From the NCBI GenBank assembly GCA_028873825.1, contig JAPPNM010000177.1, positions 4,212 through 68,211 on the forward strand: a stretch of DNA of 64,000 nt, in the 5' to 3' direction. Origin of the DNA: Gemmatimonadota bacterium. GTDB taxonomy: Bacteria; Gemmatimonadota; Gemmatimonadetes; Longimicrobiales; Gaopeijiaceae. The position numbers and the translations under genes were made by a program. Positions 10,951 through 26,440 of this stretch are shown piece after piece. Position 1 is the stretch's first letter, and the number at the start of each line of letters is the position of its first letter. The notes below the pieces were generated by a model. It did no database searches. It was not told the origin of the DNA and saw only the letters and a program-made list of their open reading frames with translations.

Positions 10951-10951
10951 A

Positions 10952-12412: not shown

Positions 12413-12432
12413 GGATGATTCCCGAAACGCAA

Positions 12433-12462
12433 GAGCCCCGAGGACGAAACGCCTCGGGGCTC
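12433..12462 (+). terminator. GC-rich hairpin after the ATPase gene
   Basis: GAGCCCCGAGG-ACGAAACG-CCTCGGGGCTC: an 11-bp perfect stem starting 21 nt after the stop. No clear U-tract follows. Confidence 0.45.
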
Positions 12463-12572
12463 CTACCTCAGCGTCTTGCTGCGCCCGAAGGCGTGTGCAG
12501 TAGAGGACGACCTGAGGAATTACACCAGGAGCATCGTCGATTCCCGCTCAGGACGCAACTCGCGGAGCTGCG

Positions 12573-13286
12573 ATGCTATCCATCGGAAGCCTTCGAAGTG
12601 CCCTCTCGGCGGAGCGGCTGGGTGCCTACGTCCGGCCAGGGGACACCGACGAAGTGGACAGCGTGGCCAGGTACCTGTGGAACTTGGCGCTGTGTAGCGC
12701 CCTCCAACCGGCGCTCCACATCCTTGAGGTCACCGTCCGGAACCACCTCTTCAAGGTTTCCAGAAGGATCGTGGATGAGACCACGCTCAGTTTCGACAGG
12801 ATTCCTTGTTGGCTCGACGCACGACCCTCGCTCCTTGCCGAACGCGAGCGTCAGGCCGTCGAGGAGGCGAAGGCCACGATCGAGATGCGGGGGAGTCCGA
12901 TGACCGAGGGACGGCTGGTTTCGGCACTGGGGTTTGGTTTCTGGGTCAGCCTGTGCAAGAGGCCGTACGAGCAGGGGCGCACTGTCGGGCCGCGTCTTTG
13001 GCCCGGACTGGCGAGGAAGGGATTTCCGCATCTGCCCAAACCGATGCGGACACGCAGTCAGGTATTCCACGCCTTGGATCCGCTCCGCGACCTGCGTATC
13101 CGCGTCTCGCACCATCAAGCCGTCCGGGACCGGAGGCTCGCGCGAAGCCATCAGGACATCCTCGACACCATTGCCTGGATCAACCGCGATCTGGCGGCAA
13201 CGCTAGAGGCACACTCGCCGCTCCCGGCAATACTCGGCAAGGGCGTGGCCGGCTTCCGGGCTCAGGCCGAGGCGATCATCAGGTGA
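12573..13286 (+). CDS. Abi_2 (AbiD/AbiF-like) abortive-infection family protein
   Basis: Contains LSAERLGAYV, ARYLWNLALCSALQPALHILEVTVRNHL, GFGFWVSL and DLRIRVSHHQAV. This is the pattern recalled for Pfam Abi_2. Confidence 0.7.
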   Translation: MLSIGSLRSALSAERLGAYVRPGDTDEVDSVARYLWNLALCSALQPALHILEVTVRNHLFKVSRRIVDETTLSFDRIPCWLDARPSLLAERERQAVEEAKATIEMRGSPMTEGRLVSALGFGFWVSLCKRPYEQGRTVGPRLWPGLARKGFPHLPKPMRTRSQVFHALDPLRDLRIRVSHHQAVRDRRLARSHQDILDTIAWINRDLAATLEAHSPLPAILGKGVAGFRAQAEAIIR

Positions 13287-13300
13287 CCTCGGAACCTCGA

Positions 13301-13570
13301 ATGACCAGGGTCACCGCCACGGAACTGCGGGTCGCGATCTCCGACCTCCTCGACCGCGTGGCCCGTCACGGCGAGCGGGTTGTGGTCGAGCGGTATGGGA
13401 AGCGGGTGGCCGCCCTCGTCAGCCCGGAGGACATCGAGCTGCTGGAAGCAATCGAGGACCGCGTGGACATCGAGGCGGCCCTGCAGGCGCTGAGGGAGCC
13501 CGGTCGGCGGAGTTGGCCCAAGGTGAAGGCCGAGTTGGCTCCGCATCGCCCTGAGGGTGAGCGACGATGA
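13301..13570 (+). CDS. Phd/YefM-family antitoxin-like protein (no cognate toxin gene)
   Basis: MTRVTATELRVAISDLLDRVARHGERVVVERYGKRVAALVSPEDIELLEAIED... Starts 14 nt after Abi_2. Its stop overlaps the pglX ATG (ATGA at 13567-13570). Confidence 0.7.
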   Translation: MTRVTATELRVAISDLLDRVARHGERVVVERYGKRVAALVSPEDIELLEAIEDRVDIEAALQALREPGRRSWPKVKAELAPHRPEGERR

Positions 13571-16500
13571 CCCCCCTCCCCCCCGACCTCCGCACCCTCC
13601 TCGCCAGGGCCATCCAGCAGGCCAGGCGCGTCGGGGAATCAGGCGCCCGTCAAGCCCTCCAATCCCTCGCCGTGGACCGCGCCAGGCCTTTCGACTCCAT
13701 GTCGCTCGGCGACAAGTCGCTCCGCAACCGCCTCCGCATGCGCGGCCGCCAAGCTGGCGACCGCCGCGAGCGCCGGACCGGCACGCAGAACCTCGTCCAT
13801 CTCGCCCACGAAGTTGCATACGAGAACTGGCACCGGATGCTCTTCGCCCGGTTCCTGGCCGAAAACGGCCTGCTCCGCGATCCCGAACACGGGGTCGACC
13901 TGTCGCTGGACGACTGCCGGGACCTGGCCGAGGAAGAAGGCACCGACGCCTGGGATTTCGCGGGCCGGTGCGCCGGACACATGCTCCCGGAGATCTTCCG
14001 CGGCGACGATCCGGTGCTCGACCTGTCTCTGCCGCCGGAGACGCGGCAGGAGCTCGAAGGGCTGCTGGACGGGCTGCCCGAGGCCGTGTTCGCGGCCCCC
14101 GACTCGCTGGGCTGGACCTACCAGTTCTGGCAGGCCGAGCGGAAGGAGGAAGTCAACCGGGAGGTCAAGAGCGGCAGGAAGATCGGAGCGGACGAACTCC
14201 CGGCGGTCACCCAGCTCTTCACCGAGACCTACATGGTCCGCTTCCTGCTTCACAACACCATCGGCGCCTGGCGCGCGGGCAGGCTGCTGGCCGACCGCCC
14301 CGACCTGGCCGGGAGTGCCTATGACGAGGAAGAGCTACGGCAGCTCGCACGCCTCGACACCGCCGGCGGCTACGACTTCTCCTACCTGCGCTTCGTGCGC
14401 GGCGTCCGCGAGGAGGACGAGGACGACTCACGCACGGGCCCTTGGCGTCCGGCCGCCGGATCCTTCCCGGACTGGCCCCGCGACGCTTCGGCCCTCCGCG
14501 TGCTCGACCCCTGTTGCGGCAGCGGCCACTTCCTCGTCGAGGCGTTCGAGCTGCTCGTGCGCCTGCGCATGGCCGAGGAGGGCGTGCAGGCCGACGAGGC
14601 AATCCGCCGCGTGCTCGCGGACAACCTCTTCGGCCTGGAGATCGACCCCCGCTGCACACAGATCGCCGCGTTCAACCTGGCTCTCGCGGCGTGGCGTCTG
14701 GCGGGGGAGCCCATCGACCTGCCGCCGCTCAACGTGGCATGCGCGGGACTCGCGCCGAACGCGTCGGAGGCCGAGTGGCGGGAGCTTGCGGAGCGGGCCG
14801 AGGGCGCGACCGGACTGGCCGGGGACCGTGACCTCTTCGGGGAGGACCAATCGCTGGCGAGCGGTTCGCTCAAGGACGAGATGGCCGCGCTGCACAAGCT
14901 GTTCAGACGGGCCCCGGAGCTCGGATCGCTGCTGGACCCGGGTTCCGTGGGACGCGACCTCTTCAGCGCCGACTTCAAGTCCGTCGCGAAGCTGCTCGAC
15001 ATCGCGATTGGGCGGGAGCGGGGGGTCGCGGGACGCGACGAGCGCGCCGTGGCGGCCGCGGGGATGGCCCGGGCCGCGGAGATCCTGCAGGGGCGGTACA
15101 CGCTCGTCGTCACCAACGTGCCGTTCCTGGCGCGGGGGAAGCAGGGGAGCGGGCTGCGCACGTTCGCGGAGGCGCACCACGGCGACGCCAAGGGGGATCT
15201 GGCCACGATGTTCGTGTCGCGGATCTTCGGGTGGCTCGGCAAGGGCGGAACGCAGGCGGTCGTGTCGCCGCAGAACTGGCTGTTCCTGAAGACCTACCGG
15301 AAGCTGCGCGAGAGGTTGTTGAAGGGGCGGACGTGGAATCTGGTGGCCCGGTTGGGTCCCGGTGCCTTCGAGACGGTCTCGGGGGAGGTGGTCAATGTCG
15401 CACTCGATGTCATTTCGGCCGGGCGTCCGGATCGTGACTGGGAGATGGCGGGGGTGGACGTGTCGTCTCCTCGGGGGCAGCGCCAGATCAAGGCTGCCGA
15501 GAAGGGGGAGAGGTTGCGGGGGGCGGCGGGGGTGGTGATGGCGGGGCAGGGGGAGCAGGTGAGAAATCCGGATTCGGCCGTGTTGATGCGGCCGATTGGG
15601 GATCGGGTGTTATTAGGAAACGTGGCTCACGGTCACCAGGGCATCGCATCCGCCGACTATCCTTCCTTTGGCAGACTATTCTGGGAGATTCCAACGGATG
15701 GCGAGACGTGGGTGTTCCAACAGAGCACGGTCAACGATACTACGGATTTCGGGGGACGAGAGCATGTCCTGCACTGGACGGGCGTCGCAGAAGTTGCCGA
15801 ACGACAAGTCGCACCTGGCGGCCGTAAAGCGGTACGTATACGAGGGGGCGGGATTTGGAGCCGTGAAGGCATCGCCGTCTCCCAGATCGGGCAGCTCCCC
15901 GTAACCCGTTACACCGGGGAGAAGTTCGACAACAACACGGCTGCGCTCGGCCCCCTCGCCGAAGACATCCTCCCCGCCGTCTGGTGCTTCTGCTCCTCGC
16001 CTGACTACGCAGCCGCAGTCCGTGAGATCGACCACGCGCTGAAAGTCACTAACGCGACCCTCGTCAAGGTCCCCTTCGACCTTGAACACTGGAAGCAGAT
16101 CGCCGCCGAGCAATATCCGCACGGCCTCCCGGAACCCTACTCCGACGACCCCACGCAGTGGATCTTCCACGGCGACCCGTGCCGTAGCGTCGTGTGGAAC
16201 GAAGAGACCAAACGCACCGACCACGCGCCCCCTCGCATTGACGCCACCGTTCTCCATGTCGCCGTCGCCCGCCTCCTCGGCTACCGCTGGCCCGCCGAAC
16301 TCGACCCCGACATGCGTCTCGCCTCCGAGCAGCGCGATGTCGCCGACGACTGCCGGGCGTTCGACGACTTCGCCGATCCCGACGGCATCGTCTGCCTGCC
16401 CGCCGTCCGTGGGGAACCGCCCGCCGCCGACCGTCTCCGCTCTCTGCTGGCCTCCGCGTACGGGGACGAGTGGTCCGCCGCCACCGAGCGCGCCCTGCTG

Positions 16501-17226
16501 ACGGCCACCAGCCCCAAGCGGCCCAAGTCATTGGAGGACTGGCTCCGCAACCGTTTCTTTCAGGAACACTGCAAGCTCTTCCACAACCGTCCCTTCCTCT
16601 GGCACGTCTGGGATGGCCGCAAGGACGGCTTCCACGCGCTCGTCAACTACCACCGGCTCGCTGGGCCAGAAGGCCAAGGCCGCCGGACCCTGGAATCCCT
16701 CACCTACGCCTACCTCAACGAGTGGATTGAGCGCCAGCGCGCGGAAAGCGAGGAGGGAACACCCGGAGCGGACGGACGCGTAGCGGCCGCACTCGACCTC
16801 CAGCAGCAACTCCAGCGCATCCTCACTGGCGAGCCTCCGTGCGACATCTTCGTGCGCTGGCGACCGCTGCACGGCCAAGCCATCGGCTGGGAGCCCAACA
16901 TCAACGACGGAGTGCGCCTGAACATCCGGCCCTTCATGCGCGCGGAGCTACGCACGGGCGGCCGCGCGGGTGCGGGCCTGCTGCGGTGGAAGCCCAACGT
17001 CAAGTGGGGAAAGGACCGGGGCAAGGAACCTGAGTCACCGAGGCCACGCGACGACTTCCCTTGGTTCTGTCGCTGTCCGGGTGGCGGTGGTGAGGCGGAG
17101 CGGATCGACTTCCGGGCCGCGCTCGACGCCGACTTTGATGGGAATCGCTGGAACAATCTTCACTATTCAGCGTCGTGCAAGAACGCGGCTCGACAACGGT
17201 TAAGTGACCAAGGAACAACATCATGA
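13567..17226 (+). CDS. pglX: BREX adenine-specific DNA methyltransferase PglX
   Basis: 1219 aa. SAM motif I VLDPCCGSGHFLV. Catalytic motif IV-like VVTNVPFLARG. N-terminal ...EVAYENWHRMLFARFLAENGLL. Position between brxC and pglZ. Confidence 0.9.
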   Translation: MTPLPPDLRTLLARAIQQARRVGESGARQALQSLAVDRARPFDSMSLGDKSLRNRLRMRGRQAGDRRERRTGTQNLVHLAHEVAYENWHRMLFARFLAENGLLRDPEHGVDLSLDDCRDLAEEEGTDAWDFAGRCAGHMLPEIFRGDDPVLDLSLPPETRQELEGLLDGLPEAVFAAPDSLGWTYQFWQAERKEEVNREVKSGRKIGADELPAVTQLFTETYMVRFLLHNTIGAWRAGRLLADRPDLAGSAYDEEELRQLARLDTAGGYDFSYLRFVRGVREEDEDDSRTGPWRPAAGSFPDWPRDASALRVLDPCCGSGHFLVEAFELLVRLRMAEEGVQADEAIRRVLADNLFGLEIDPRCTQIAAFNLALAAWRLAGEPIDLPPLNVACAGLAPNASEAEWRELAERAEGATGLAGDRDLFGEDQSLASGSLKDEMAALHKLFRRAPELGSLLDPGSVGRDLFSADFKSVAKLLDIAIGRERGVAGRDERAVAAAGMARAAEILQGRYTLVVTNVPFLARGKQGSGLRTFAEAHHGDAKGDLATMFVSRIFGWLGKGGTQAVVSPQNWLFLKTYRKLRERLLKGRTWNLVARLGPGAFETVSGEVVNVALDVISAGRPDRDWEMAGVDVSSPRGQRQIKAAEKGERLRGAAGVVMAGQGEQVRNPDSAVLMRPIGDRVLLGNVAHGHQGIASADYPSFGRLFWEIPTDGETWVFQQSTVNDTTDFGGREHVLHWTGVAEVAERQVAPGGRKAVRIRGGGIWSREGIAVSQIGQLPVTRYTGEKFDNNTAALGPLAEDILPAVWCFCSSPDYAAAVREIDHALKVTNATLVKVPFDLEHWKQIAAEQYPHGLPEPYSDDPTQWIFHGDPCRSVVWNEETKRTDHAPPRIDATVLHVAVARLLGYRWPAELDPDMRLASEQRDVADDCRAFDDFADPDGIVCLPAVRGEPPAADRLRSLLASAYGDEWSAATERALLTATSPKRPKSLEDWLRNRFFQEHCKLFHNRPFLWHVWDGRKDGFHALVNYHRLAGPEGQGRRTLESLTYAYLNEWIERQRAESEEGTPGADGRVAAALDLQQQLQRILTGEPPCDIFVRWRPLHGQAIGWEPNINDGVRLNIRPFMRAELRTGGRAGAGLLRWKPNVKWGKDRGKEPESPRPRDDFPWFCRCPGGGGEAERIDFRAALDADFDGNRWNNLHYSASCKNAARQRLSDQGTTS

Positions 17227-20200
17227 CCTTTCGAGATCAACGTCATGTCCATCGGATTTGCGAAGCCCTTTGGCGTCGTTCCGGCGCGGGTGCGTCGGTC
17301 ATGGTCGGGAGCGGGTTTAGCCGGAACGCACGTGCGTTGCGCCCAGGCTCGGACTCGTTGCCCATGTTGGCCGAGATCGGGCGGGCCCTATCCGCTGAGC
17401 TGTATCCCAACGCTACCACCAATCAAGAGATACCCCCGGAGCGACTCTTGAGATTGGCGCAGGCATACCAAGCCGAATTCAAACCCACCGGGTTGCACGC
17501 AGCACTCAGGACATTGGTGGCGGACGATGACTTCACGCCAGCCACTGCCCATGAGCGACTCCTTCGACTGCCGTGGGCCGATGTGTTTACCACCAACTGG
17601 GATACACTACTGGAACGTGCAAGCGAGACCGTTAGGGACCGTGTCTACACTATCGTCCGAAGCAAGCACGACATTCCTGGAGGAGCCCGGCCACGCATCA
17701 TCAAACTCCACGGGTCCCTTCCCGATTCCGCCCTCGTCCTAACCGAAGAGGACTATCGAACCTATCCTACCAAGTTCTTGCCCTTTGTGAATACCGTACA
17801 ACAGGCAATGATGGAGACGACATTCGTCCTAATTGGCTTTTCGGGCAATGATCCTAACTTCCTTCATTGGTCAGGTTGGGTTCGTGACCACCTCGATGAA
17901 GCTGCGCTGAACATCTATCTCGCTGGATTACTGAACCTGTCGCGCCCCGAGCGCCAGATGCTCCGAGATCGCAACGTAGTTGCCATCGATCTCGCGTTGC
18001 ACCCACGAGCAGACGAGTGGCCCGATGGCCTTCGTCATGAGTACGCCACAAAGTGGATTCTCTCAGCGCTCGAATGCGGACAACCCTACAACATATCGAA
18101 ATGGCCTACGCCTCGGCCTGCGACATTCTGTTCCGAAGAGGATCCTCTACTCGATCCGATCATCCGAAACGTGTCGGCAGAACCACGCAGGGAACCCTCG
18201 GAGTCGCCACGGGAGATACCTTCGGACGAGCGCTTGATCGCCGTCAAGAAGACTCTTGACATTTGGAAGTACAACCGGGACCTTTTTCCGCGCTGGTTGG
18301 TGGCTCCGGGGCGAGTGCGAAGTGAAGTATGGTATTCCACTGAGCGCTGGATGTCTTTCGTCGTGCAGGAGCTGACGCAATTGGCCGCTCTGGAACGCCT
18401 GACCGCGATTCGCGACATCATCTGGCGGTACGAGCTGACCCTTGAGACAATCCCGGATGAACTTCACGCCGCCGCGGAGGCGGTGCTGAGATCCATCGAC
18501 TGTACAGGGCGGACGGTTGAAGGGATTCGCCCAGATGACGTGGATTGGAGCGCGACTCGTGGGGCGTGGCAGGAGGTGACCCTCGCTCTCTTGACCGCTG
18601 CCAGATACCGACTCGACGGTGCCGCTTTCGAGAAGCACCTCAACGCAGTGCAGCCCATTCTGGACGATGATGTGGAGGCAGCCCATCGTGTGAATCATGA
18701 ACGCTGCCTGTGGGCGCTGTGGGCCTTGGACCATGCGACAGTCGGCGAACGGTTAGATGCATGGAGGACTGACGAAGGCGATTCCGCTTGGGCGATGCGC
18801 AAGAGCGCCCTCCTGAGAGAGATTGGACGCAAGGAGGATGCTGATCGCTTGACTATGCGCGTCGTTGAGCGGATCAGAGCGACTCGAGATGGCCCTGGCG
18901 ATCTTGGTGGTCGGTCACGTGAAGGATGGGCGCTATGGAGTCTGGTCGAGACGTTTGCGTATGATGGCAGCTTTCAAACCCGATGGGATAATGTCCAAGC
19001 ACGATGGGATGAGCTCGCGGTCGTCAAGTGCAATCCGTATCCCGACGTCCGTAACCTCAGCGATCAGTTGTCGACCGATCGGCGCGAAACTCGGGTCCCG
19101 GCTTTCGACCTCGGAATGCGTCCGACAGAGTCGCACACGATGCAGATGGTACGTCCGCCCTCTGCATCGCGGGGCATTCGACTGACCGAGGTCGCGGGTG
19201 TCGCCCCTACGACTGGTGTGCGGACGGTCGCGGGCGGCTTGGTGAAGCGGGCTGCCGAAGCACTGATCTCCGATGATGCCACCCTTGGAATGCGTCAGAT
19301 GATCCGCGTCGCCGAATCGGGCAACGACAAGGCGCTGAGGCGTGTGCTGACCCGTCCACGAGTGGCTGCGCTTACTGCTGCGAGCGCACGAGCACTGTCT
19401 CGCGATGTTCAGATCGCATTGAAGAACTCAGTATCGGATATTCGGACCACCAGAGACGAAACCCGATTCAAAGCGGTGAGGCACACGAGCGTCGCCATGG
19501 AGTCATTGTCACGGCTGGTGCTGCGACTGGAGCCTGGAGCGGCTCTCTCGATCTTTGACCGTGCGCTTGGCCTCTATCGGGACACGTCGGTGATGGAGTG
19601 GATTCAGCTGCACGGATCACTGCGTAACCTGTTGAGGAGAAGTTGGGAGACTCTTGACGACGAACAGCGCACGGAGCGAATACTCGATGTTCTTGAGACG
19701 CCGATCGTCGGGCTCGACGGGTATGCGAGTGCCGGTGATCACTGGCCTGATCCCAGTGAGATCCTGTCGGAGGATCTTTCGCCAGTGCGTTCTGAAGAGA
19801 ATGAGAATCGATGGAACTCAGTGGTGGCCACGTTGATTCGAGGGTCGAGCGCCGAGGGGCAGGTACGTGAACGGGCAGCAGTCAGGCTTGCCAAGATCGC
19901 GTTGTGGGGTCGCCTTGCGAAGACAGAGACGGAGAGAGTCGCTGAGGCTATCTGGGGAGTCGCAGCGGATGAAGAACAAGCGCTTCCAGATGGCACGTCG
20001 CTGCACGACTATGCCTTTATTCTGCTTCCCGAGCCCAAGGTTGGCGTTGGAAGAGCGCGCTTTGGGCGAAAGTGGCTGTCGGGGGATGTTGCCAATGTGC
20101 GGCTTGGCGGCGAGGTCGGCCACAAAGATTCGACTAGGGCAGACGACATTCTGTGGCAGGCGGGCATGTCCGTTGCGTTCGTACGTCGTCACGGGAGAAC

Positions 20201-21050
20201 GTTGGATCTGACCAATGAGGAGAAGGATTATCTGATCGGAGTGATTGATCATTGGTCACGGACTAGGGCTCCCAAGCCTTCGGTAGTGATTCCAGAGTTC
20301 TTTAGAGATTTGCGGACACGATCGATCTGGGATGCGTGCCGTGGGTTGCGGTGGCTTTTGACTGAGATTCGGATTCCCAATGGTCTTGCGGAGAGACTAT
20401 ATGGGCAAGTGCCGGAGTTGATCGATAGCGGGATTTCAGCGTACGGCATCCTTCCGGGCATCGACAATGTAGACGAGGATCTGCGTGAGGACATTGCGTT
20501 GCTTATGTCAACCGGATTGGCATCGGACGATCGCAAGATGGGGGAGAGCGCGATGTGGTCATTGCACTGTTGGTTGCGGTTCGCGTCAGAGTCGGCGCTT
20601 GACTTCGTCGGTCCCCCACAGCACTTGATTCGGGAAATTGGGGTTTCGGTGGCCACGAGGCGGCGAACGGTACTGGGAGAGGCGCTCCACGCGGCGAAGT
20701 GGATCTTTGAAGACGGCAGTGAAGAAGAGCGAGACGCGATCCGCGACTTGGTGCTGAAGGGCTTGGGCTACCTCGCCGAAGAGTTGCGGTACGATCGCGA
20801 GGACCCGCTCGATGAGAAACTCGATGTTCCGCTCGCACGGTGGCGCAGCATCCAAGTGGCGCGAGCGATGGCCGGGCAGGGTTTGGGCGGGCATCCCGTG
20901 GTCAAGCGGTGGTTGCAGTTGGGAATGGATGACCCGCTACCGGAAGTACGACGTGTCGCGAACAGGAGGCGGGAGGGTGATGCGATGGTCGAAGTGGCCG
21001 GTGCAGATGGGCGACATGAGTTCGCCGACGAGGGTGGGGCCGATGCCTAG
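17223..21050 (+). CDS. SIR2_2-domain protein with about 1000-aa helical C-terminal region (DSR-like candidate NADase effector)
   Basis: Contains VMVGSGFS, FTTNWDTLLERA, IIKLHGSL and LIGFSGNDPNFLHW within the first 260 aa. HEAT-like DDPLPEVRRVA near the C-terminus. The ATG overlaps the pglX stop (ATGA). GC is visibly lower than in the flanking genes. Confidence 0.8.
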   Translation: MTFRDQRHVHRICEALWRRSGAGASVMVGSGFSRNARALRPGSDSLPMLAEIGRALSAELYPNATTNQEIPPERLLRLAQAYQAEFKPTGLHAALRTLVADDDFTPATAHERLLRLPWADVFTTNWDTLLERASETVRDRVYTIVRSKHDIPGGARPRIIKLHGSLPDSALVLTEEDYRTYPTKFLPFVNTVQQAMMETTFVLIGFSGNDPNFLHWSGWVRDHLDEAALNIYLAGLLNLSRPERQMLRDRNVVAIDLALHPRADEWPDGLRHEYATKWILSALECGQPYNISKWPTPRPATFCSEEDPLLDPIIRNVSAEPRREPSESPREIPSDERLIAVKKTLDIWKYNRDLFPRWLVAPGRVRSEVWYSTERWMSFVVQELTQLAALERLTAIRDIIWRYELTLETIPDELHAAAEAVLRSIDCTGRTVEGIRPDDVDWSATRGAWQEVTLALLTAARYRLDGAAFEKHLNAVQPILDDDVEAAHRVNHERCLWALWALDHATVGERLDAWRTDEGDSAWAMRKSALLREIGRKEDADRLTMRVVERIRATRDGPGDLGGRSREGWALWSLVETFAYDGSFQTRWDNVQARWDELAVVKCNPYPDVRNLSDQLSTDRRETRVPAFDLGMRPTESHTMQMVRPPSASRGIRLTEVAGVAPTTGVRTVAGGLVKRAAEALISDDATLGMRQMIRVAESGNDKALRRVLTRPRVAALTAASARALSRDVQIALKNSVSDIRTTRDETRFKAVRHTSVAMESLSRLVLRLEPGAALSIFDRALGLYRDTSVMEWIQLHGSLRNLLRRSWETLDDEQRTERILDVLETPIVGLDGYASAGDHWPDPSEILSEDLSPVRSEENENRWNSVVATLIRGSSAEGQVRERAAVRLAKIALWGRLAKTETERVAEAIWGVAADEEQALPDGTSLHDYAFILLPEPKVGVGRARFGRKWLSGDVANVRLGGEVGHKDSTRADDILWQAGMSVAFVRRHGRTLDLTNEEKDYLIGVIDHWSRTRAPKPSVVIPEFFRDLRTRSIWDACRGLRWLLTEIRIPNGLAERLYGQVPELIDSGISAYGILPGIDNVDEDLREDIALLMSTGLASDDRKMGESAMWSLHCWLRFASESALDFVGPPQHLIREIGVSVATRRRTVLGEALHAAKWIFEDGSEEERDAIRDLVLKGLGYLAEELRYDREDPLDEKLDVPLARWRSIQVARAMAGQGLGGHPVVKRWLQLGMDDPLPEVRRVANRRREGDAMVEVAGADGRHEFADEGGADA

Positions 21051-22812
21051 ATCCCGCCGCGATGTTGAAGGACTTCTGGACCGGCTCGACGAGTTTCCCG
21101 CCCACGACCTCGAGTTCCAGAACCTCGACTTCAAGGAATGGGATCCCTGCCGCCTGAACCAATCGGTGCGATCCGCCGTGACCTCCGCCGTCTGCATGGC
21201 CAACGGCGGCGGTGGAACAGTGGTCTTCGGCGTCGCCGACAAGGTGGTAGGCCGCGACCGCGCGATCGTCGGCGTCCCGCCTGAAGTGTCGGTCAACCGC
21301 CTCAAGCTGGCGGTTCACGACGGAACGGATCCGAAGCTCACGCCGGTCTTCGAGGAACTCATGGTACCGGAAGGGACTGGACGCCTGATCCTCATGCGCG
21401 TTCATCCCGGGATCCCCCCCTACACGGATACCGCCGGTCGCGGCACGGTTCGGGTCGGCACGGACTGCAAGCCGCTGACCGGAACGATGAGGAGAAAGCT
21501 CCTCGAAGAGTCCGGAGAGAACGACTACACGGCGGTGACCATCGACGCTCCTCTTCCCGGGTTGATATCCCCCGCGGCCATGGAGACGCTTCGCGAGGCC
21601 GCGAAGTTGGACAGGGCGCCCCCTGACCTGCTTCGGCTTGGCGACACCGATCTGCTGCGCGCGATCGGCGTGATCCGCGACGGCAGGCCCACGCGGGCGG
21701 CGGTCCTTCTCGCCGGCTCGCCCGACGCCGTCCGCGACCATGTCCCCAGCTTCCTTTGGACCCACCTCCGAATGTCGTCGGACACCGAGTACTCCGACCG
21801 CGCCGACGGCCACCACGCAATCCCGGTCGCCCTGTCCCGCCTCCTCGACCGGATCATGGCGAACAACCTGATCGAGACGGTGCGTCGCGGAGTCTACCAC
21901 TTCGAGTACCGAACGTACCCGAAGACGGCTCTTCGAGAGGCCCTTCTCAACGCACTGTGCCACGGTGCCTTTCGTGTCGCCGGCCCGAGGATCGTGAGGC
22001 AGTATGCCGACCGAATCGAAATCTCCAACCCCGGTGGTCTGATCGGCGACATCACGCCGGACAACATCCTCCACCACGCGCCTGCGGCTCGGAATCCGTG
22101 CCTCGTCCAGGCCCTGGTGCGTCTCCGCCTTGTGAATCGAAGCAAACTCGGAATGGAGCGGATGTACTCTGCGCTTCTCATTGAGGGGAAGCCGCCGCCC
22201 GAGATCGAGGAGGTCGGCGGATCCGTCCGGTTGACGTTTAGGGCTTCCTCCGTTTCACCCCGGTTCCGCGGCTTCGTGGGCGAGGAGGCGCGAAAGGAGA
22301 TCGTGCTCGGCGCGGACCAGCTGCTCCTCCTGCGACACATGGTCCGCCACGGCGAGATCGACAATCCCACCGCATCTCGGCTCTGCCAGAGGCGGGAGTC
22401 CGCCGTCGCCGCAGTGCTGGCCCGGATGGAATCGGAGCTGGGATACGTGGAACACAGAGGCAGCGGCCCGGGCGCGTACTGGATGCTGTCGCCCGAAGCC
22501 CATGCCCGCTTGGCGCCCGCGAACGACTTTCGCGAGGGACCGAAGGTCGTCTTCGGAGCGGACGGAACGGTGACCCACCGGGATCCGCACGGAGCCTGGG
22601 ACGGTCTCAAGGCGCGGGTGATCCGGGTGATCAGGCGATGCGCCGATACCGGTGCCGATCCCCTCGTCAACGCCGATGTCCGCCGGATCACCGGCCTGGA
22701 TCGCCATCAGGTCCGCCGCATGATCCATGAGCTCCGGGACGACGGCCTCGTCGTGATCGAGGGCCACGGGCGTGCCGCCAGATACCTCTACGCCAGCCCC
22801 GGGAGCGAATAG
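21043..22812 (+). CDS. COG2865/Schlafen-like protein (AlbA_2-like N-domain + HATPase_c_4 + C-terminal wHTH-like regions)
   Basis: The ATG at 21043 lies 8 nt before the SIR2 stop. Contains DLEFQNLDFKEWD and LREALLNALCHGAF. C-terminal ...RHQVRRMIHELRDDGLVVIEG. The ORF track start at 20812 is judged too far upstream. Confidence 0.65.
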   Translation: MPRSRRDVEGLLDRLDEFPAHDLEFQNLDFKEWDPCRLNQSVRSAVTSAVCMANGGGGTVVFGVADKVVGRDRAIVGVPPEVSVNRLKLAVHDGTDPKLTPVFEELMVPEGTGRLILMRVHPGIPPYTDTAGRGTVRVGTDCKPLTGTMRRKLLEESGENDYTAVTIDAPLPGLISPAAMETLREAAKLDRAPPDLLRLGDTDLLRAIGVIRDGRPTRAAVLLAGSPDAVRDHVPSFLWTHLRMSSDTEYSDRADGHHAIPVALSRLLDRIMANNLIETVRRGVYHFEYRTYPKTALREALLNALCHGAFRVAGPRIVRQYADRIEISNPGGLIGDITPDNILHHAPAARNPCLVQALVRLRLVNRSKLGMERMYSALLIEGKPPPEIEEVGGSVRLTFRASSVSPRFRGFVGEEARKEIVLGADQLLLLRHMVRHGEIDNPTASRLCQRRESAVAAVLARMESELGYVEHRGSGPGAYWMLSPEAHARLAPANDFREGPKVVFGADGTVTHRDPHGAWDGLKARVIRVIRRCADTGADPLVNADVRRITGLDRHQVRRMIHELRDDGLVVIEGHGRAARYLYASPGSE

Positions 22813-22885
22813 ATCGTGAGCGAGAATGTGATTGAGGACGGTCGAGGCCGGAATGAAGACGGGTTCCCCGTGAGCTTTTCTCAGC

Positions 22886-23160: not shown

Positions 23161-23171
23161 CGCGCCGGAAG

Positions 23172-24353
23172 ATGAACCTGAACGAATTTCGCGAGAGAAT
23201 CCGAGCCGGCGAGAGCGAGCGGCTGGAGTTCAAGCGCGAGGCGCGCGACCTCCGGGCGGTCGGCCGGGCCGTCTGCGCGTTCGCCAACTCGTCCGGCGGC
23301 ACGGTCGTCATTGGCGTGGACGACCGGGGCGGAATCGTGGGCGTGGACGAAGATCCGGACGGGCTGCAGGAACGCCTGAGCGGCTTTCTCCACACCGGAC
23401 TGAGTTCCCCCGTTTCGGCGAGGTGCGGCTGTCTGGAGACTCCCGCCGGCTGGGTGCACTGGATCAGGGTCCCCCACCAGCAGCGCGGGTTCGAGCCCAT
23501 GCGCCACAGGGGCCGCTACTGGGTGCGCCGCGGCAGGAGCAGCGTCGAGCCGTCGCCCTCCGGGCTGGAGGAGCTCCTCCAAGTCTTCGGGTTCGTAATG
23601 ACGGAGGACCAAGTGATCCCGTCGGCGGAGGAACATCACATCGACCTGGCCGTGTTCACCGCCCACCTGCGGGCCATGGGACTCAAGCCCGACGAGGGGC
23701 CCCAGCCTTCCATGACCGACGACCTTCGCAATCGCGGAGTGACCGCGGAACTGGACGGGGTCATGCGTCCGACCCTCTACGGCCTGCTAGCGTTCGGCAA
23801 GCATCCGCAGCAATACCCCCAGATGGGGAACTTCGTCGTGCGTTGCGCCGCCTACCTGGGCGACCACCAGGGATCGGAGGTCATTTCGGCCAGCGAGAGC
23901 CGGGGACGTCTGGAGGAGCAGGTGAATCGCGCGCTGGAGTGGGTCCGATCCTTCGGCTGGCGCGAGGAATACCGGGGTCTCTACCGCCGCAACGTGCCGC
24001 TGGTCCCCGAGGACGCCCTCCGCGAGGCGCTGGTGAACGCGGTCGTGCACCGGGACTACTCGATCACCGGATCGCCGGTGTCGCTGGACGTGCTGCGGGA
24101 CCGGGTTCTGGTGACCAGTCCGGGGGCTCTTCCGAATCACATGACCGAGGAGAGCGTGCGCGCGGGCGGGCGGCCCCGGTCCCGCAACGAGCTCATGGTC
24201 AACGCGATGGTCGTGGCCAGGTTGATGGAGAAGCGCGGGAGGGGATGGCTGCTGATGAGTGAGGCGATGGCGGAGTTCGATCTGCCCGAGCCGGAGATCG
24301 AGAACGATCCCGCGGGACGCACAGTGCGGGTGACGCTGAGGCGCGTGCCATGA
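23172..24353 (+). CDS. COG2865/Schlafen-like protein (AlbA_2 + HATPase_c_4)
   Basis: 393 aa. Contains GESERLEFKREA, AFANSSGGTVVIGVDD and LREALVNAVVHRDY. Confidence 0.75.
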   Translation: MNLNEFRERIRAGESERLEFKREARDLRAVGRAVCAFANSSGGTVVIGVDDRGGIVGVDEDPDGLQERLSGFLHTGLSSPVSARCGCLETPAGWVHWIRVPHQQRGFEPMRHRGRYWVRRGRSSVEPSPSGLEELLQVFGFVMTEDQVIPSAEEHHIDLAVFTAHLRAMGLKPDEGPQPSMTDDLRNRGVTAELDGVMRPTLYGLLAFGKHPQQYPQMGNFVVRCAAYLGDHQGSEVISASESRGRLEEQVNRALEWVRSFGWREEYRGLYRRNVPLVPEDALREALVNAVVHRDYSITGSPVSLDVLRDRVLVTSPGALPNHMTEESVRAGGRPRSRNELMVNAMVVARLMEKRGRGWLLMSEAMAEFDLPEPEIENDPAGRTVRVTLRRVP

Positions 24354-24360
24354 CACCTCG

Positions 24361-24393
24361 GGACGGCTTCCACGCGCTCGTCAACCACCACCG
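24361..24393 (+). repeat. 33-nt copy (32/33 identical) of an internal pglX segment (16623-16655)
   Basis: GGACGGCTTCCACGCGCTCGTCAAC(T/C)ACCACCG, compared base by base. Lies 8 nt after the stop of the 23172 gene. Confidence 0.85.
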
Positions 24394-24422
24394 ACACGCG
24401 GCACGTCGCCCGGAGAAATCCG

Positions 24423-24758
24423 ATGCCCAAGACTAGAGCCGAGATACTCGACGTGCTGGAACGCCTCGACGAGTGCGTGGCGGACGATCTCGAGGGCCAG
24501 CATCTCGACTTCAAGCAGTGGGATCAACGCAGCGACCGGGGCGCGCTGCGACAAATTGCTTCATTTCCTTCCCCGATCCGCAAGACGGGTGCGCATCGTG
24601 GGGCGCGAGACCGGACACGCGTTACCTGGCAGGCTCGTGATGGTGGAGCGGGCACCTGGGACCGCGGGAAATGGGACAAATCGGGACGGGTCGGGGCGTT
24701 CCTTGTCCCAATTCGCGCCGGATCGTTGGAAATGTATCAGCAGCGGATGATCCCATGA
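24423..24758 (+). pseudogene. stub ORF: the first 36 or so codons resemble the N-terminus of the 21043 COG2865 gene, the rest is unrelated
   Basis: ILDVLERLDECVADDLEGQHLDFKQWD compared with LLDRLDEFPAHDLEFQNLDFKEWD. The ORF stop overlaps the ATG of the next gene (ATGA at 24755-24758). Confidence 0.4.
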
Positions 24759-26440
24759 CCCCTCTCCTCTCCCCCGCCGAGCTCCAGACCGTCCTGTCCC
24801 GCGGCGAAGGCCAGTTCGTCGAGTTCAAGTCCGCGTGGGACCGCACTACTTCACCGCGCAAGCCCGTCGCGCGCCGCGCCCTGCGCGACAAGATCGCCGA
24901 TGCCGTCGCCGCCTTCGCGAACGCCGACGGTGGCCTGCTCTTGGTCGGAGTGGACGACGACGGCACCGCCACCGGGCACCGCTACCCAGACCATGTCGTG
25001 GACGACCTGTTCGCCGTCCCCGACCGCCGACTGACCCCCGCCGTCGACTGCCGCACGGCGCGCTTGTCGCTCGATTGCCACGAGATCCTCGCCTTCCAGG
25101 TCCCGATTGCCTCCGAAGCCGTCATGATCGACGGGAACAGCTTCCCGTATCGGGTCGGCGCCCGGATCATCCGGGAGCCGCAGGAGATCATCAACCAGCG
25201 GAAGCAGGCGTATCGCCTCGTCGGCTACGAGCAACGCTTCAGCCCGGAAGCGACTGTGGACGATCTGGACCTGGCGCTGGCCGAGTCCTTCCTGAAGGAG
25301 ACGCCGGTTGGGGACCGTCCCGTCCTCGATGCCCTCGACTACTACGGCCTCATCGAGATGGACGTACGCGACTGGAGGGTGACCAACGCCGCTCTCCTGC
25401 TCTTTGCGCGCCGCCCGGCGCTCCGCTGGCATCCCCGCGCGGGCCTCCGGGTGTTCCGCGTCGCAGGAACGGAGATCAGGTACGGGCGCCGGCGGAACGT
25501 GACGCAGATCGGGCGGGCGGATCCTCCGCTGGCCCTGGCCGTCCACGAGATAGTGGAGCTGGCGCGGCACCAGGTGCGCAGGTCCGAGAAACTGGTCGGT
25601 CTCCACTTCGAGGACATCACCGAGTACCCCCACTTCGCGTGGCAGGAATCGTTGGTCAACGCCATTGCCCACCGCGACTACGAAGTGCAGGGCCGCGAAA
25701 CCGAAATCTGGTTCTTCGAGGACCGGCTCGAAGTGTCGAGTCCGGGAGAGCTCCTTCCGCCCGTCACCGTGGACACGCTGCGAGAGGGCCACAGGGCTCA
25801 TGTGACCCGCAATCCGATGCTGGTCCGGGTTCTCGCCGACACGGAGATCATGCGGGACGAGGGGGAGGGGATCGTGCGGGTCTTCCGCGAAATGGCGAAC
25901 AGCTTTCTCCGCGAACCGGAGATGACCTCCGCGAACGGCCTGTTCACGATCACGCTTCGCAACGAGCCCGACTGGGAGGCACACGGACCGGGTTGGAGGC
26001 ACTTCGTCGACTGGCTTCGCGTCACGGACGATCAGAAGAGGATGCTACTCCTGCGGCCGTACGGGTTCACACAGGCCGACTATGAGCGGCTGAACACGAT
26101 GTCGCCCGAGGAAGCGGCTCGGCGGATCGCGGATCTGGTAAGCGGAGAACTCGTGATCGGCCTTCCCGCTCCAGACAATGTCGGGCCGATGTTCGTGGTG
26201 CGGCCGGACAAGGAAAAGATGGGCCTCTTCCTGAACGACCGGATCCTTAGGCTCCGGGAGCATTTCCGGAAGCAGCCCTGGCTCAAGAATGCCGACTATC
26301 GCGAGGTCTTCGACGTTGACCGGCGAAAGGCGACCAGGGAGCTCCGCCAGCTCGCGGAGGTCTTCGGTCTGCTGCGGATGGAAGGGACCCGCCGGGGTGC
26401 CCACTACCGCCCAACGTCCGCGCTCGGAGCGAGCTTATGA
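24755..26440 (+). CDS. COG2865/Schlafen-like protein (AlbA_2 + HATPase_c_4 + C-terminal extension)
   Basis: MTPLLSPAELQTVLSRGEGQFVEFKSAWD..., AFANADGGLLLVGVDDDG, and WQESLVNAIAHRDY. The start is chosen at the ATG at 24755 within ORF 24671..26440. Confidence 0.75.
   Translation: MTPLLSPAELQTVLSRGEGQFVEFKSAWDRTTSPRKPVARRALRDKIADAVAAFANADGGLLLVGVDDDGTATGHRYPDHVVDDLFAVPDRRLTPAVDCRTARLSLDCHEILAFQVPIASEAVMIDGNSFPYRVGARIIREPQEIINQRKQAYRLVGYEQRFSPEATVDDLDLALAESFLKETPVGDRPVLDALDYYGLIEMDVRDWRVTNAALLLFARRPALRWHPRAGLRVFRVAGTEIRYGRRRNVTQIGRADPPLALAVHEIVELARHQVRRSEKLVGLHFEDITEYPHFAWQESLVNAIAHRDYEVQGRETEIWFFEDRLEVSSPGELLPPVTVDTLREGHRAHVTRNPMLVRVLADTEIMRDEGEGIVRVFREMANSFLREPEMTSANGLFTITLRNEPDWEAHGPGWRHFVDWLRVTDDQKRMLLLRPYGFTQADYERLNTMSPEEAARRIADLVSGELVIGLPAPDNVGPMFVVRPDKEKMGLFLNDRILRLREHFRKQPWLKNADYREVFDVDRRKATRELRQLAEVFGLLRMEGTRRGAHYRPTSALGASL

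What the first reader, a model, noticed from the sequence alone, without database searches (positions are those of the whole stretch)
17223..21050. 1275-aa SIR2-domain giant fused into the BREX operon at the pglX stop codon
The N-terminal 260 or so aa carry the SIR2_2 motif set: GSGFS, TTNWD, KLHGS and GFSGNDPNF. The remaining 1000 or so aa are helical repeats (TPR/HEAT-like). This is the architecture of DSR1/DSR2-type NAD+-depleting defence proteins.

The context is what stands out. The ATG overlaps the pglX TGA, and its TAG is overlapped by the next gene. Hand counts of 60-nt samples give about 58-60% GC inside the gene, against about 77% in a pglX sample, so it was acquired from elsewhere yet sits precisely in frame-coupled position.

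The restriction arm of BREX is not understood. A NADase effector co-translated with PglX would be a new BREX variant, or a stacked BREX + DSR hybrid.
Basis: partly seen in the sequence, partly recalled or inferred. Interest (0 to 1): 0.8.

Follow-up and report, generated by a model that had tools for sequence, protein, structure and literature searches.

The report
DSR2-like sirtuin cargo inside BREX
The 1275-aa gene is a real, intact but divergent member of the DSR2 family of NAD+-destroying anti-phage proteins, and it occupies a swappable cargo slot just after pglX in a BREX operon, so it is most likely a stacked second defence rather than a new part of BREX.

Summary
ORF 17223-21050 (+) encodes 1275 aa with all four SIR2 motifs. 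It overlaps the pglX stop (ATGA), and the next gene most likely starts 8 nt before its stop (ATGCCTAG). Its GC is 0.59 and GC3 0.64, against GC3 0.77-0.91 in neighbouring genes.

It is DSR2-like over its full length: PADLOC Dsr2 E=6e-146, NCBIfam Dsr2 E=2e-150 (below the equivalog cutoff). An AlphaFold model (pLDDT 83) has B. subtilis DSR2 chains as all of its top 50 PDB matches. The catalytic-type residues N125 and H163 are invariant.

In close relatives of the same Gemmatimonadota type 1 BREX lineage, the same slot holds other SIR2 alleles (44-88% identity), an IS-disrupted SIR2 gene, an unrelated PIN-TPR protein, a Type II R-M pair, or nothing. Homology breaks about 60 nt before the pglX stop and resumes at the next gene's start, which defines an exchangeable cassette.

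Only 4 of 80 species-level family members are BREX-flanked. None of 36 more distant BREX loci has the gene. The low GC is family-wide, so it does not show recent acquisition here. Four-nt overlaps are routine in this operon.

Best reading: an autonomous abortive-infection NADase that is probably co-transcribed with BREX. One open lead is that the family often sits directly downstream of methyltransferase genes.

The parts
17223..21050 (+). DSR2-like defence sirtuin gene, 1275 aa, intact
   Evidence: ORF. PADLOC Dsr2 PDLC02184: E=6.3e-146, aa 8-1200 on model positions 12-1171 of 1222. NCBIfam NF041819 Dsr2: E=2.1e-150, 503 bits, aa 8-1202, below the 1400-bit equivalog cutoff. The top 50 Foldseek PDB matches are all B. 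subtilis DSR2 chains. Homologues at 80-88% identity cover 100% of the query, which supports the ATG at 17223 as the start.
17223..18092 (+). N-terminal SIR2 (Rossmann-type alpha/beta) NADase domain, about aa 1-290. It carries GSGFS (17307-17321), TTNWD (17589-17603, N125 at 17595-17597), KLHGS (17703-17717, H163 at 17709-17711) and GFSGNDPNF (17835-17861).
   Evidence: Pfam SIR2_2 E=4e-18. A family-profile search against the PDB matches aa 45-222 to DSR2 residues 55-234 with E=2.5e-13, and matches ThsA equally well. N125 and H163 are invariant in 24- and 50-sequence family alignments. With the +8 offset of the PDB alignment they correspond to DSR2 N133 and H171, the catalytic residues reported in PMC11087589. 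SIR2-only DSR2 chains superpose at TM 0.69-0.81 and rmsd 3.6-4.1 A. Beta strands and helices alternate over aa 24-256 in the model.
18222..20792 (+). All-alpha helical-repeat body (aa 334-1190), corresponding to the DSR2 middle and C-terminal solenoid domains. It is the presumed sensor. The region aa 761-1200 diverges fastest.
   Evidence: The AlphaFold2 model shows helices only from aa 334 to 1190, mostly at pLDDT 85-95. Foldseek alignments to DSR2 run over the full length, 1200-1300 columns. Identity between the window and its closest alleles (L001, L007) falls to 0.62-0.68 over aa 901-1040, against 0.93-1.00 over aa 1-330.
17166..21050 (+). Exchangeable cassette: the last ~20 codons of pglX plus the whole DSR2-like gene
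   Evidence: blastn homology between the window and loci with other cargo (L167, L168, L169) stops at 17165-17166 and resumes at 21054-21100. PglX is conserved up to ...FDGNRWNDLHY, and its last 17-20 residues then differ according to cargo type.
13567..17226 (+). pglX, the BREX type 1 adenine methyltransferase. Its stop overlaps the DSR2 start.
   Evidence: PADLOC PglX PDLC02528: 1464 bits, aa 1-1213 on model positions 1-1123 of 1125. Pfam Eco57I, N6_Mtase and MmeI_Mtase. NCBIfam BREX_1_MTaseX: 312 bits, below the 500-bit cutoff.
21043..22812 (+). Schlafen/AlbA_2 + HATPase_c_4 (+ weak MarR-type wHTH) gene whose likely start overlaps the DSR2 stop by 8 nt. It is the downstream anchor of the cassette.
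   Evidence: Pfam. In-frame ATG at 21043. 95% identical in L001, with the same 8-nt overlap in L001, L003, L168 and L171. This protein type is listed as BREX-associated in PMC12839542.
5166..5951 (+). Gene in the brxA position (first gene of the BREX operon)
   Evidence: GC3 0.83 and a 4-nt overlap with brxB. Homologues lie upstream of brxB in most related BREX loci. No Pfam or NCBIfam match, so the name rests on position and conservation only.
5948..6502 (+). brxB
   Evidence: PADLOC BrxB E=3.7e-71.
6540..10016 (+). brxC
   Evidence: PADLOC BrxC 1202 bits. NCBIfam BREX_BrxC 640 bits, above the 400-bit cutoff.
10013..13286 (+). Second cargo interval, between brxC and pglX: a HATPase_c_4 gene (10013-10855), a PD-T4-4_A-like AAA_15/AAA_21 ATPase (10952-12412) and an unassigned ORF (12573-13286)
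   Evidence: The contents of this interval differ among related loci.
23172..26440 (+). Two further Schlafen/AlbA_2 + HATPase_c_4 paralogues (23172-24353 and 24671-26440), lying between the cassette and pglZ
   Evidence: Pfam.
26573..29047 (+). pglZ (BREX-1 type B)
   Evidence: PADLOC PglZ 854 bits. NCBIfam BREX_PglZ_1_B 812 bits, above the 400-bit cutoff.
29044..31107 (+). brxL
   Evidence: PADLOC BrxL 919 bits. NCBIfam TIGR02688 445 bits, above the 329-bit cutoff.

Best explanation
The gene encodes a divergent member of the DSR2 family of single-protein abortive-infection systems. It has an N-terminal SIR2 NADase domain and a helical-solenoid body of about 900 residues.

By analogy with B. 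subtilis DSR2, the protein would sit auto-inhibited, probably as an oligomer built around the SIR2 domains. Its C-terminal solenoid would bind a phage protein made during infection. The SIR2 domain would then hydrolyse NAD+ and stop the infected cell. These steps are inferred, not shown.

The gene is not a BREX component. It is the current occupant of a recombination-exchangeable cargo slot that runs from the last ~20 codons of pglX to the start of a Schlafen-type gene, in one Gemmatimonadota lineage of type 1 BREX. Because its start and stop overlap the neighbouring genes, it is most likely transcribed with pglX, and perhaps translationally coupled to it. BREX would then be the first defence and NAD+ depletion a second layer.

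Shown here: family membership at profile and fold level, conserved catalytic-type residues, the cassette boundaries, alternative occupants of the slot, the empty site, and family members outside BREX. Inferred: NADase activity, the trigger, oligomerisation, co-transcription, and independence from BREX.
For: DSR2 family:
- The PADLOC and NCBIfam Dsr2 models match over the full length (E=6e-146 and 2e-150).
- The AlphaFold2 model (pLDDT 83.1, pTM 0.69) has B. subtilis DSR2 chains as all of its top 50 PDB matches. Most align over the full length, with E down to 1.5e-12.
- N125 and H163 are invariant and align with DSR2 N133 and H171.
- The C-terminal region diverges fastest among close alleles, as expected of a sensor.

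Cargo rather than core:
- In close relatives of this PglX (74-88% identity), the slot holds an IS-disrupted SIR2 gene (L167), a PIN-TPR-GreABC protein with no similarity to DSR2 (L168, L171), a Type II R-M pair (L169), another SIR2 allele (L170), or nothing (L172, with the six core BREX genes present).
- The homology breakpoints lie at 17165 and 21054-21100, and the PglX tail varies with the cargo.
- SIR2 alleles in the slot are 44-88% identical while BrxL stays at 94-97%, and allele identity does not track PglX identity. L005 pairs PglX at 79% with SIR2 at 46%. L167 pairs PglX at 88% with a divergent SIR2 remnant that is only about 66% identical in nucleotide sequence over the one short stretch that still aligns.
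- None of 36 more distant type 1 BREX loci has the gene, and 23 of those 36 carry other cargo between pglX and pglZ.
- Only 4 of 80 species-representative family loci are BREX-flanked. One relative (L006) lies among metabolic genes.

Precedent: embedded 'backup' effectors in BREX loci are already described (PMC12839542). B. subtilis DSR2 has NADase activity in vitro with only its phage activator added (PMC11087589).
Against: - Sequence identity to the only characterised DSR2 is 10-12%. Outside the SIR2 domain, sequence searches against the PDB find nothing, even with a family profile. The global TM-score is at most 0.52, and the NCBIfam score is far below the equivalog cutoff. The trigger and regulation may therefore differ from B. 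subtilis DSR2.
- The family sits directly downstream, on the same strand, of a methyltransferase or restriction gene from four different system types more often than simple island clustering would suggest. About 16 of 80 species-level loci have such a gene within 500 nt, and 42 of 87 loci within 10 kb. This leaves room for a functional link.
- No expression or activity data exist, and the promoter and terminator scans were uninformative.
Confidence: 0.7

Rival explanations
1. Guard model. The DSR2-like protein monitors the methyltransferase it is co-expressed with (PglX here; Type I, IIG or III methyltransferases elsewhere). It fires NAD+ depletion when a phage anti-restriction protein, such as an Ocr-like DNA mimic, inhibits that enzyme. 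From my own knowledge, this would resemble PrrC held latent by EcoprrI, or PARIS sensing Ocr.
For: - The gene is tightly and co-directionally placed immediately 3' of a modification gene in several unrelated system types. These are pglX (4-nt overlap in 8 of the 9 BREX loci examined), large Type III-like N6_N4 methylases (gaps of 5-37 nt in L014, L072, L074; also L012, L056), Type IIG/ISP enzymes (L030, L031, L063, L025) and Type I HsdR or HsdM (L040, L004).
- 42 of 87 loci have such a system within 10 kb, using only nine query proteins.
- Translational coupling would favour matched synthesis of the two proteins.
- The clade that holds all BREX-embedded copies also holds a Type I R-M-embedded copy. 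That copy is preceded by a 102-aa ORF that weakly resembles the PglX C-terminus (pairwise E=9e-5).
Against: - About half of the family loci have no R-M or BREX gene nearby, and one lies among metabolic genes.
- In the Type III-like loci the gene lies at the end of the operon among other defence genes, which is typical island structure.
- Unrelated cargo occupies the same slot with the same overlaps, so the coupling belongs to the slot and not to the SIR2 gene.
- SIR2 alleles are shuffled relative to PglX.
- The only characterised family member senses a phage tail tube protein and needs no partner.
Confidence: 0.12
2. Core-effector model. The NADase is the missing restriction arm of this BREX subtype and is required for exclusion.
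For: The gene lies between pglX and pglZ with overlapping codons. The placement recurs in at least ten loci of the lineage besides the window.
Against: - L172 has the six core BREX genes (brxA-position gene, brxB, brxC, pglX, pglZ, brxL) plus the Schlafen-type gene, with no gene in the slot.
- L167 has the SIR2 gene truncated to 251 aa by two transposase genes.
- L168, L171 and L169 have unrelated genes in the slot.
- None of 36 outgroup type 1 BREX loci has the gene, and 13 of them have pglX directly followed by pglZ.
- Most family members have no BREX nearby.
Confidence: 0.03
3. The gene was acquired recently from a lower-GC donor and has no settled role, or it is a decaying or inactive passenger.
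For: GC3 is 0.64 against 0.77-0.91 in the neighbours, and the drop is confined to the gene and the last ~200 nt of pglX.
Against: - The same GC deficit is present in every BREX-embedded allele down to 44% identity and in 68 of 71 family loci.
- The cassette is shared at 81-88% protein identity with at least three other genomes.
- The ORF is intact over 1275 codons, and all invariant family residues are present.
Confidence: 0.05

Closest known systems
DSR2 (defence-associated sirtuin 2) of Bacillus subtilis 29R (PDB 8K98, 8WKX, 8WY8 and others)
   Same: It has an N-terminal SIR2 domain with the same catalytic-type Asn and His (N125/H163 against N133/H171), followed by an all-helical middle and C-terminal solenoid. 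It is a single large polypeptide. It is the best full-length structural match in the PDB, and the curated Dsr2 profiles match end to end.
   Different: It shares only 10-12% identity. It is about 270 residues longer (1275 against 1005 aa). The body is undetectable by sequence against the PDB. It scores below the NCBIfam equivalog cutoff (503 against 1400 bits). The trigger is unknown, so tail-tube sensing and DSAD1 inhibition are not established for this clade. It is embedded in an operon here rather than free-standing.
Accessory or backup effectors embedded in BREX loci (catalogued in PMC12839542; from my own knowledge also BrxU/GmrSD in pEFER and PARIS in E. coli and Salmonella BREX loci)
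   Same: It is an accessory abortive-type effector gene placed between core BREX genes on the same strand, in a variable interval. The same slot holds a PIN-domain protein in sister loci, and Schlafen-histidine-kinase-wHTH genes lie alongside.
   Different: That catalogue lists nucleases only and does not mention SIR2 or NADases (0 occurrences). I found no paper that links DSR2 with BREX. In this case the cassette boundaries can be mapped to within about 50 nt.
ThsA (the Thoeris SIR2 effector)
   Same: The SIR2 domain scores as well against ThsA as against DSR2 in sequence searches.
   Different: No SLOG or STALD sensor domain and no thsB partner were detected. The C-terminal body is a helical solenoid.
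PrrC / EcoprrI (an anticodon nuclease embedded in a Type Ic R-M locus), from my own knowledge
   Same: It is a suicide effector gene placed inside a restriction-modification operon next to the modification genes. It is the model for the guard hypothesis.
   Different: There is no evidence here of any physical or functional link to PglX, and the effector chemistry is different.

Membership tests
DSR2 (defence-associated sirtuin 2) | N-terminal SIR2 (Rossmann-type) domain | tested here: met
   Pfam SIR2_2 E=4e-18. A PDB profile search matches the DSR2 SIR2 domain with E=2.5e-13. SIR2-only DSR2 chains superpose at TM 0.69-0.81 and rmsd 3.6-4.1 A.
DSR2 (defence-associated sirtuin 2) | Catalytic Asn and His of the NAD+ site (N133 and H171 in B. 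subtilis DSR2; PMC11087589) | tested here: met
   N125 and H163 are invariant in 24 and 50 homologues. They align with N133 and H171 through the +8 offset. The H171A chains score lower than wild type.
DSR2 (defence-associated sirtuin 2) | Middle domain plus C-terminal helical solenoid following the SIR2 domain in one polypeptide | tested here: met
   The model is all-alpha over aa 334-1190. Most of the top 50 PDB matches are full-length alignments to DSR2 (1200-1300 columns, probability 1.00), but the global TM-score is only 0.3-0.5, so domain arrangement or detail differs.
DSR2 (defence-associated sirtuin 2) | Match to curated family profiles | tested here: inconclusive
   PADLOC Dsr2 matches over the full length with E=6e-146. 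NCBIfam NF041819 matches over the full length with E=2e-150, but 503 bits is far below its 1400-bit equivalog cutoff. The protein is a homologue, not an equivalog.
DSR2 (defence-associated sirtuin 2) | Phage-triggered NAD+ depletion that causes abortive infection | not testable with these tools
   This needs NAD+ measurements during infection and N125A/H163A mutants.
DSR2 (defence-associated sirtuin 2) | Activation by the phage tail tube protein, inhibition by DSAD1, and tetramer formation through the SIR2 domains | not tested
   No cognate phage is known and no multimer prediction was available. The sensor region is not detectably similar in sequence to that of B. subtilis DSR2.
DSR2 (defence-associated sirtuin 2) | Works as a single-gene system without partner genes | tested here: inconclusive
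   76 of 80 species-level homologues have no BREX flanks, and one relative sits among metabolic genes. However, 42 of 87 loci have some R-M or BREX gene within 10 kb. Autonomy of this particular copy is untested.
Type 1 BREX core component | Present in all or nearly all loci of the system | tested here: not met
   The gene is absent from 36 of 36 outgroup type 1 BREX loci. In the same lineage it is absent (L172), replaced (L168, L169, L171) or disrupted (L167).
Type 1 BREX core component | Co-divergence with the other BREX genes | tested here: not met
   BrxL is 94-97% identical across loci whose SIR2 alleles are 44-88% identical. L005 pairs PglX at 79% with SIR2 at 46%. Homology breakpoints flank the gene.
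BREX-embedded accessory (backup) effector (PMC12839542) | Effector gene located between or immediately next to core BREX genes, on the same strand, recurring across taxa | tested here: met
   The gene lies between pglX and pglZ with overlapping codons. The arrangement recurs in L001, L002, L003, L005, L007, L017, L064, L079 and L170, and in IS-disrupted form in L167.
Thoeris ThsA | SIR2 domain fused to a SLOG/STALD sensor, with a thsB TIR partner | tested here: not met
   Only the SIR2 part matches the ThsA models, at aa 75-231. No SLOG domain or TIR gene was found in the locus.

The most novel reading that the evidence does not exclude
This ~1250-aa DSR2-like family may be a guard of DNA-modification enzymes. 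It would be co-expressed from the 3' end of methyltransferase genes (PglX of BREX; Type I, IIG and III-like methyltransferases). It would be held inactive until a phage anti-restriction factor disables the methyltransferase or its complex, and would then deplete NAD+. That would give BREX and R-M systems a built-in counter to anti-restriction, and would give DSR2-like proteins a trigger other than a tail tube protein.
Probability: 0.12. Interest if true: 0.75.

Novelty: new member of a known kind. Interest (0 to 1): 0.35.

Why it matters
For BREX, the result is negative. The SIR2 protein does not explain how BREX restricts phage, because the same BREX lineage works as a locus without it.

What is useful is the mapped example of how defence operons exchange cargo. 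A cassette bounded by the last ~20 codons of pglX and the start of a Schlafen-type gene carries, in different genomes, a DSR2-like NADase (several alleles), a PIN-TPR protein, a Type II R-M pair, or nothing.

It adds an NAD+-depleting effector to the list of backup effectors embedded in BREX, which so far names only nucleases. It also shows that a large DSR2-like clade (more than 2800 homologues, mostly from uncultured Gemmatimonadota, Latescibacterota, Chloroflexota and others) frequently trails methyltransferase genes. That pattern gives a concrete, testable guard hypothesis.

Tried and rejected
1. Effector swap on a shared sensor. I asked whether the 1294-aa PIN-TPR-GreABC protein that replaces the SIR2 protein in L168 shares its C-terminal body. 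BLASTP found no similarity (best E=3), so whole systems replace each other.
2. Sequence-only membership. phmmer and a 24-sequence profile against the PDB matched DSR2 only over the SIR2 domain and no better than ThsA. A fold comparison was needed.
3. A conserved small upstream partner gene. The ORFs of 100-200 aa ending at the SIR2 start in L004, L008, L016 and L032 are unrelated to each other. The exception is a shared 10-residue tail in L004 and L008. Only L004's ORF weakly resembles the PglX C-terminus. There is no partner family.
4. Promoter and terminator scans of 12300-27000 gave counts no higher than the shuffled controls. Operon structure therefore rests on gene spacing only.
5. The metagenome scan with the PglX alignment returned only relatives at 45-58% identity. 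It served as an outgroup but did not sample the close lineage. Close relatives came from protein-cluster look-ups instead.
6. GC as evidence of recent transfer was rejected after the family-wide comparison.
7. No tRNA gene was found in the window, so the island has no tRNA anchor.

Full report
**1. The observation**

The window has an intact ORF at 17223..21050 on the + strand, 1275 aa with an ATG start. Pfam SIR2_2 matches aa 121-235 with E=4e-18.

The ATG overlaps the pglX stop as ATGA. The next gene has an in-frame ATG at 21043, preceded by GAGGGTGGGG, which gives an 8-nt overlap ATGCCTAG with the TAG. Gene calls in related loci place the downstream start at the same spot.

GC is 0.59 and GC3 0.64, against GC3 0.77-0.91 for the twelve neighbouring genes. 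The drop is confined to this gene and the last ~200 nt of pglX.

The source's own gene call starts the protein at M48 (P0001, 1228 aa). Homologues at 80-88% identity cover 100% of the query, and residues 1-33 are nearly invariant. M1 is therefore the start.

**2. The surroundings**

The + strand carries a complete type 1 BREX operon:
- brxA-position gene, 5166-5951
- brxB, 5948-6502
- brxC, 6540-10016
- pglX, 13567-17226
- pglZ type B, 26573-29047
- brxL, 29044-31107

Two intervals hold extra genes. Between brxC and pglX lie a HATPase_c_4 gene, a PD-T4-4_A-like ATPase and an unassigned ORF. Between pglX and pglZ lie the SIR2 gene and three Schlafen/AlbA_2 + HATPase_c_4 genes. Four of the twelve gene junctions in the island are 4-nt overlaps. 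The ATGA at pglX/SIR2 is therefore the usual style of this operon.

**3. What the protein is**

The PADLOC Dsr2 model matches aa 8-1200 with E=6e-146. NCBIfam Dsr2 (NF041819) matches aa 8-1202 with E=2e-150, but its 503 bits are far below the 1400-bit equivalog cutoff.

Against PDB sequences, both the single protein and a 24-sequence family profile match B. subtilis DSR2 only over the SIR2 domain (aa 45-222, E=2.5e-13). They match ThsA equally well.

I therefore predicted the structure of aa 1-1200 from a 50-sequence alignment, which gave mean pLDDT 83.1 and pTM 0.69. Residues 1-290 form an alpha/beta domain, and residues 334-1190 contain only helices.

In a Foldseek search of the PDB, the top 50 matches are all chains of B. 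subtilis DSR2. Most align over the full length (1200-1300 columns, E down to 1.5e-12, probability 1.00) at 10-12% identity. Global TM-scores are 0.3-0.5. SIR2-only chains superpose at TM 0.69-0.81 and rmsd 3.6-4.1 A.

N125 and H163 are invariant across the family. They align with N133 and H171, the catalytic residues of DSR2.

The protein is thus a divergent DSR2-family member with an intact active site. Among the closest alleles, the region aa 761-1200 diverges fastest: identity is 0.62-0.68 over aa 901-1040, against 0.93-1.00 over aa 1-330. This fits a sensor region under selection.

**4. Is it part of BREX?**

The family is large, with more than 2853 homologues at E<=1e-10, nearly all 1240-1300 aa.

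Close relatives at 88, 83, 81 and 70% identity sit in exactly the same place, with the same 4-nt and 8-nt overlaps. More distant alleles at 44-50% identity also follow pglX in the same BREX lineage (L005, L017, L064, L079). Taken alone, this looks like a conserved BREX accessory gene.

Four further results argue that it is cargo.

(a) Only 4 of 80 species-representative family loci have BREX flanks, and all four are Gemmatimonadota. Another relative lies in a Type I R-M operon (L004), and one lies among metabolic genes (L006).

(b) In 36 more distant type 1 BREX loci (PglX 45-58% identical) with at least 4 kb of sequence downstream of pglX, none has the gene. In 13 of them pglZ directly follows pglX. 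The other 23 have 0.4-6.7 kb of other cargo.

(c) I looked up six close PglX relatives (74-88% identity) that shared no contig with a listed DSR2 homologue. The slot held:
- a SIR2 gene truncated to 251 aa by two transposase genes (L167)
- a 1294-aa PIN-TPR-GreABC protein (L168, L171)
- a GHKL-type restriction-enzyme-like gene plus a C5 methylase (L169)
- a different SIR2 allele (L170)
- nothing: pglX, a 169-nt gap, the Schlafen-type gene, pglZ, brxL (L172)

The PIN-TPR protein has no similarity to the SIR2 protein.

(d) Nucleotide homology between the window and these loci stops at 17165-17166 and resumes at 21054-21100. PglX is conserved up to ...FDGNRWNDLHY, and its last 17-20 residues then vary with the cargo type. 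The Type II R-M cargo keeps the ATGA overlap with pglX, and the PIN-TPR cargo keeps the 8-nt overlap into the Schlafen-type gene.

In addition, BrxL is 94-97% identical across loci whose SIR2 alleles are 44-88% identical. Allele identity does not track PglX identity.

The SIR2 gene is therefore one of several interchangeable occupants of a defined cassette site.

**5. The GC argument**

Every BREX-embedded allele has GC 0.59-0.61 and GC3 0.64-0.67, against flanks of 0.61-0.68. The gene is below its flanks in 68 of 71 family loci, with a median difference of -0.048. The dip is a family trait. It fits a gene that moves often, but it does not date an acquisition in this genome.

**6. An association that remains open**

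In a neighbour-joining tree, all BREX-embedded copies fall in one clade. That clade also contains the Type I R-M-embedded L004 and three non-BREX loci. The 102-aa ORF before the SIR2 gene in L004 weakly resembles the PglX C-terminus (pairwise E=9e-5), which suggests a cassette that left BREX.

Outside this clade, the gene often lies a few nucleotides downstream, on the same strand, of one of the following:
- a large Type III-like N6_N4 methylase (L012, L014, L056, L072, L074)
- a Type IIG/ISP enzyme (L025, L030, L031, L063)
- Type I HsdR (L040)

With only nine query proteins, 42 of 87 loci have such a gene within 10 kb.

In the Type III-like loci the order is res, mod, SIR2, followed by other defence genes such as OLD/AAA_15-type ATPases and UvrD helicases. 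NB-ARC, Mrr and a serine recombinase follow in the Type IIG and Type I loci. There the gene trails the R-M operon inside a defence island and is not embedded in it.

I could not compute a background-corrected enrichment. The pattern may be ordinary island clustering, or it may reflect a functional tie to methyltransferases.

**7. Mechanism**

The best-supported reading (confidence 0.7) is an autonomous DSR2-type abortive-infection NADase. By analogy with B. subtilis DSR2 (PMC11087589), the protein is auto-inhibited, its helical C-terminal region binds a phage protein, and the SIR2 domain then hydrolyses NAD+. Here it is expressed from the BREX operon as a second layer of defence. NADase activity, the trigger, the oligomeric state and co-transcription are all inferred.

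The main rival (0.12) is a guard that senses inhibition of the adjacent methyltransferase. A role as the BREX restriction effector (0.03) is contradicted by the empty, replaced and IS-disrupted sites.

**8. Comparison with what is known, and novelty**

DSR2 is known, and so is the embedding of backup effectors in BREX loci. A 2026 survey lists PIN, HEPN, OLD/TOPRIM and Schlafen-histidine-kinase-wHTH effectors in BREX loci, but it does not mention SIR2 or NADases (PMC12839542). Literature searches found no paper linking DSR2 with BREX.

The finding is a new member of a known kind: a divergent DSR2-family protein in an arrangement of a type already described, with an effector class not yet listed for it. 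I score interest at 0.35, for the mapped exchangeable cassette and the methyltransferase-adjacency lead.

**9. Likely source**

The closest PglX and SIR2 relatives are from Gemmatimonadetes/Gemmatimonadota MAGs, and the window's GC is 0.68. The window probably comes from an uncultured Gemmatimonadota genome.

Noticed in passing
window 15600-16060 (inside pglX, about aa 680-830): This block has no nucleotide homology among pglX genes that are otherwise 85-96% identical on both sides (L001, L002, L167, L168, L169). It is also the unconserved stretch of the PglX alignment. It looks like a swapped target-recognition region, which would mean different BREX motif specificities among sister loci.
   Followed up: partly
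window 10013-13286: There is a second cargo interval between brxC and pglX. It holds a HATPase_c_4 gene, a PD-T4-4_A-like AAA_15/AAA_21 ATPase (PADLOC E=9e-68) and an unassigned 237-aa ORF with a weak PD-T4-5 match. Sister loci carry other sets there, including a Phd antitoxin and AAA_21 + DUF4276 pairs.
   Followed up: partly
window 21043-22812, 23172-24353, 24671-26440: Three paralogous Schlafen/AlbA_2 + HATPase_c_4 genes lie between the cassette and pglZ, and the first also has a weak MarR-type wHTH match. The number of copies varies among sister loci. They match the 'Schlafen RNase-histidine kinase-wHTH' proteins reported as BREX-associated in PMC12839542.
   Followed up: partly
L168 13742-17626 and L171 13733-17617: A 1294-aa PIN-TPR-GreABC (PF20698) protein occupies the same slot after pglX in two sister BREX loci, with the same 8-nt overlap into the Schlafen-type gene. 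It has no PADLOC match. It may be an uncharacterised single-protein defence system of similar size.
   Followed up: partly
L167 13639-19135: The SIR2 gene after a pglX that is 88% identical to the window's is cut to 251 aa by two DDE transposase genes. This is a natural knockout of the cargo in an otherwise similar locus.
   Followed up: no
window 31147-33107 (- strand): An AAA_21/AAA_15 ATPase (PADLOC HEC-01A E=1e-44; also mad3-like) and a small mad4-like gene lie convergent to brxL. Their GC is lower, 0.61-0.62. This is probably another two-gene defence system at the edge of the island.
   Followed up: no
window 33309-35865: A Phd/YefM antitoxin-like ORF lies at 33309-33770. It is followed by an ORF (34381-35865) that combines an ArdC N-terminal domain, a zincin MPTase-PolyVal domain and a Mutator-family transposase segment. 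This is an anti-restriction-type gene with a transposase scar next to a BREX island, and it may mark a mobile-element boundary.
   Followed up: no
L004 9696-10004: A 102-aa ORF lies between hsdM and the SIR2 gene in a Type I R-M operon. It weakly resembles the PglX C-terminus (aa 1165-1210, pairwise E=9e-5) and shares its last 10 residues and its GTGA overlap with L008. It may be a remnant of pglX carried along with the cassette.
   Followed up: partly
window 17223-17363: The public gene call for this protein (P0001) starts at M48 and so omits the GSGFS glycine loop. Homologues show that the first 47 residues are conserved.
   Followed up: yes
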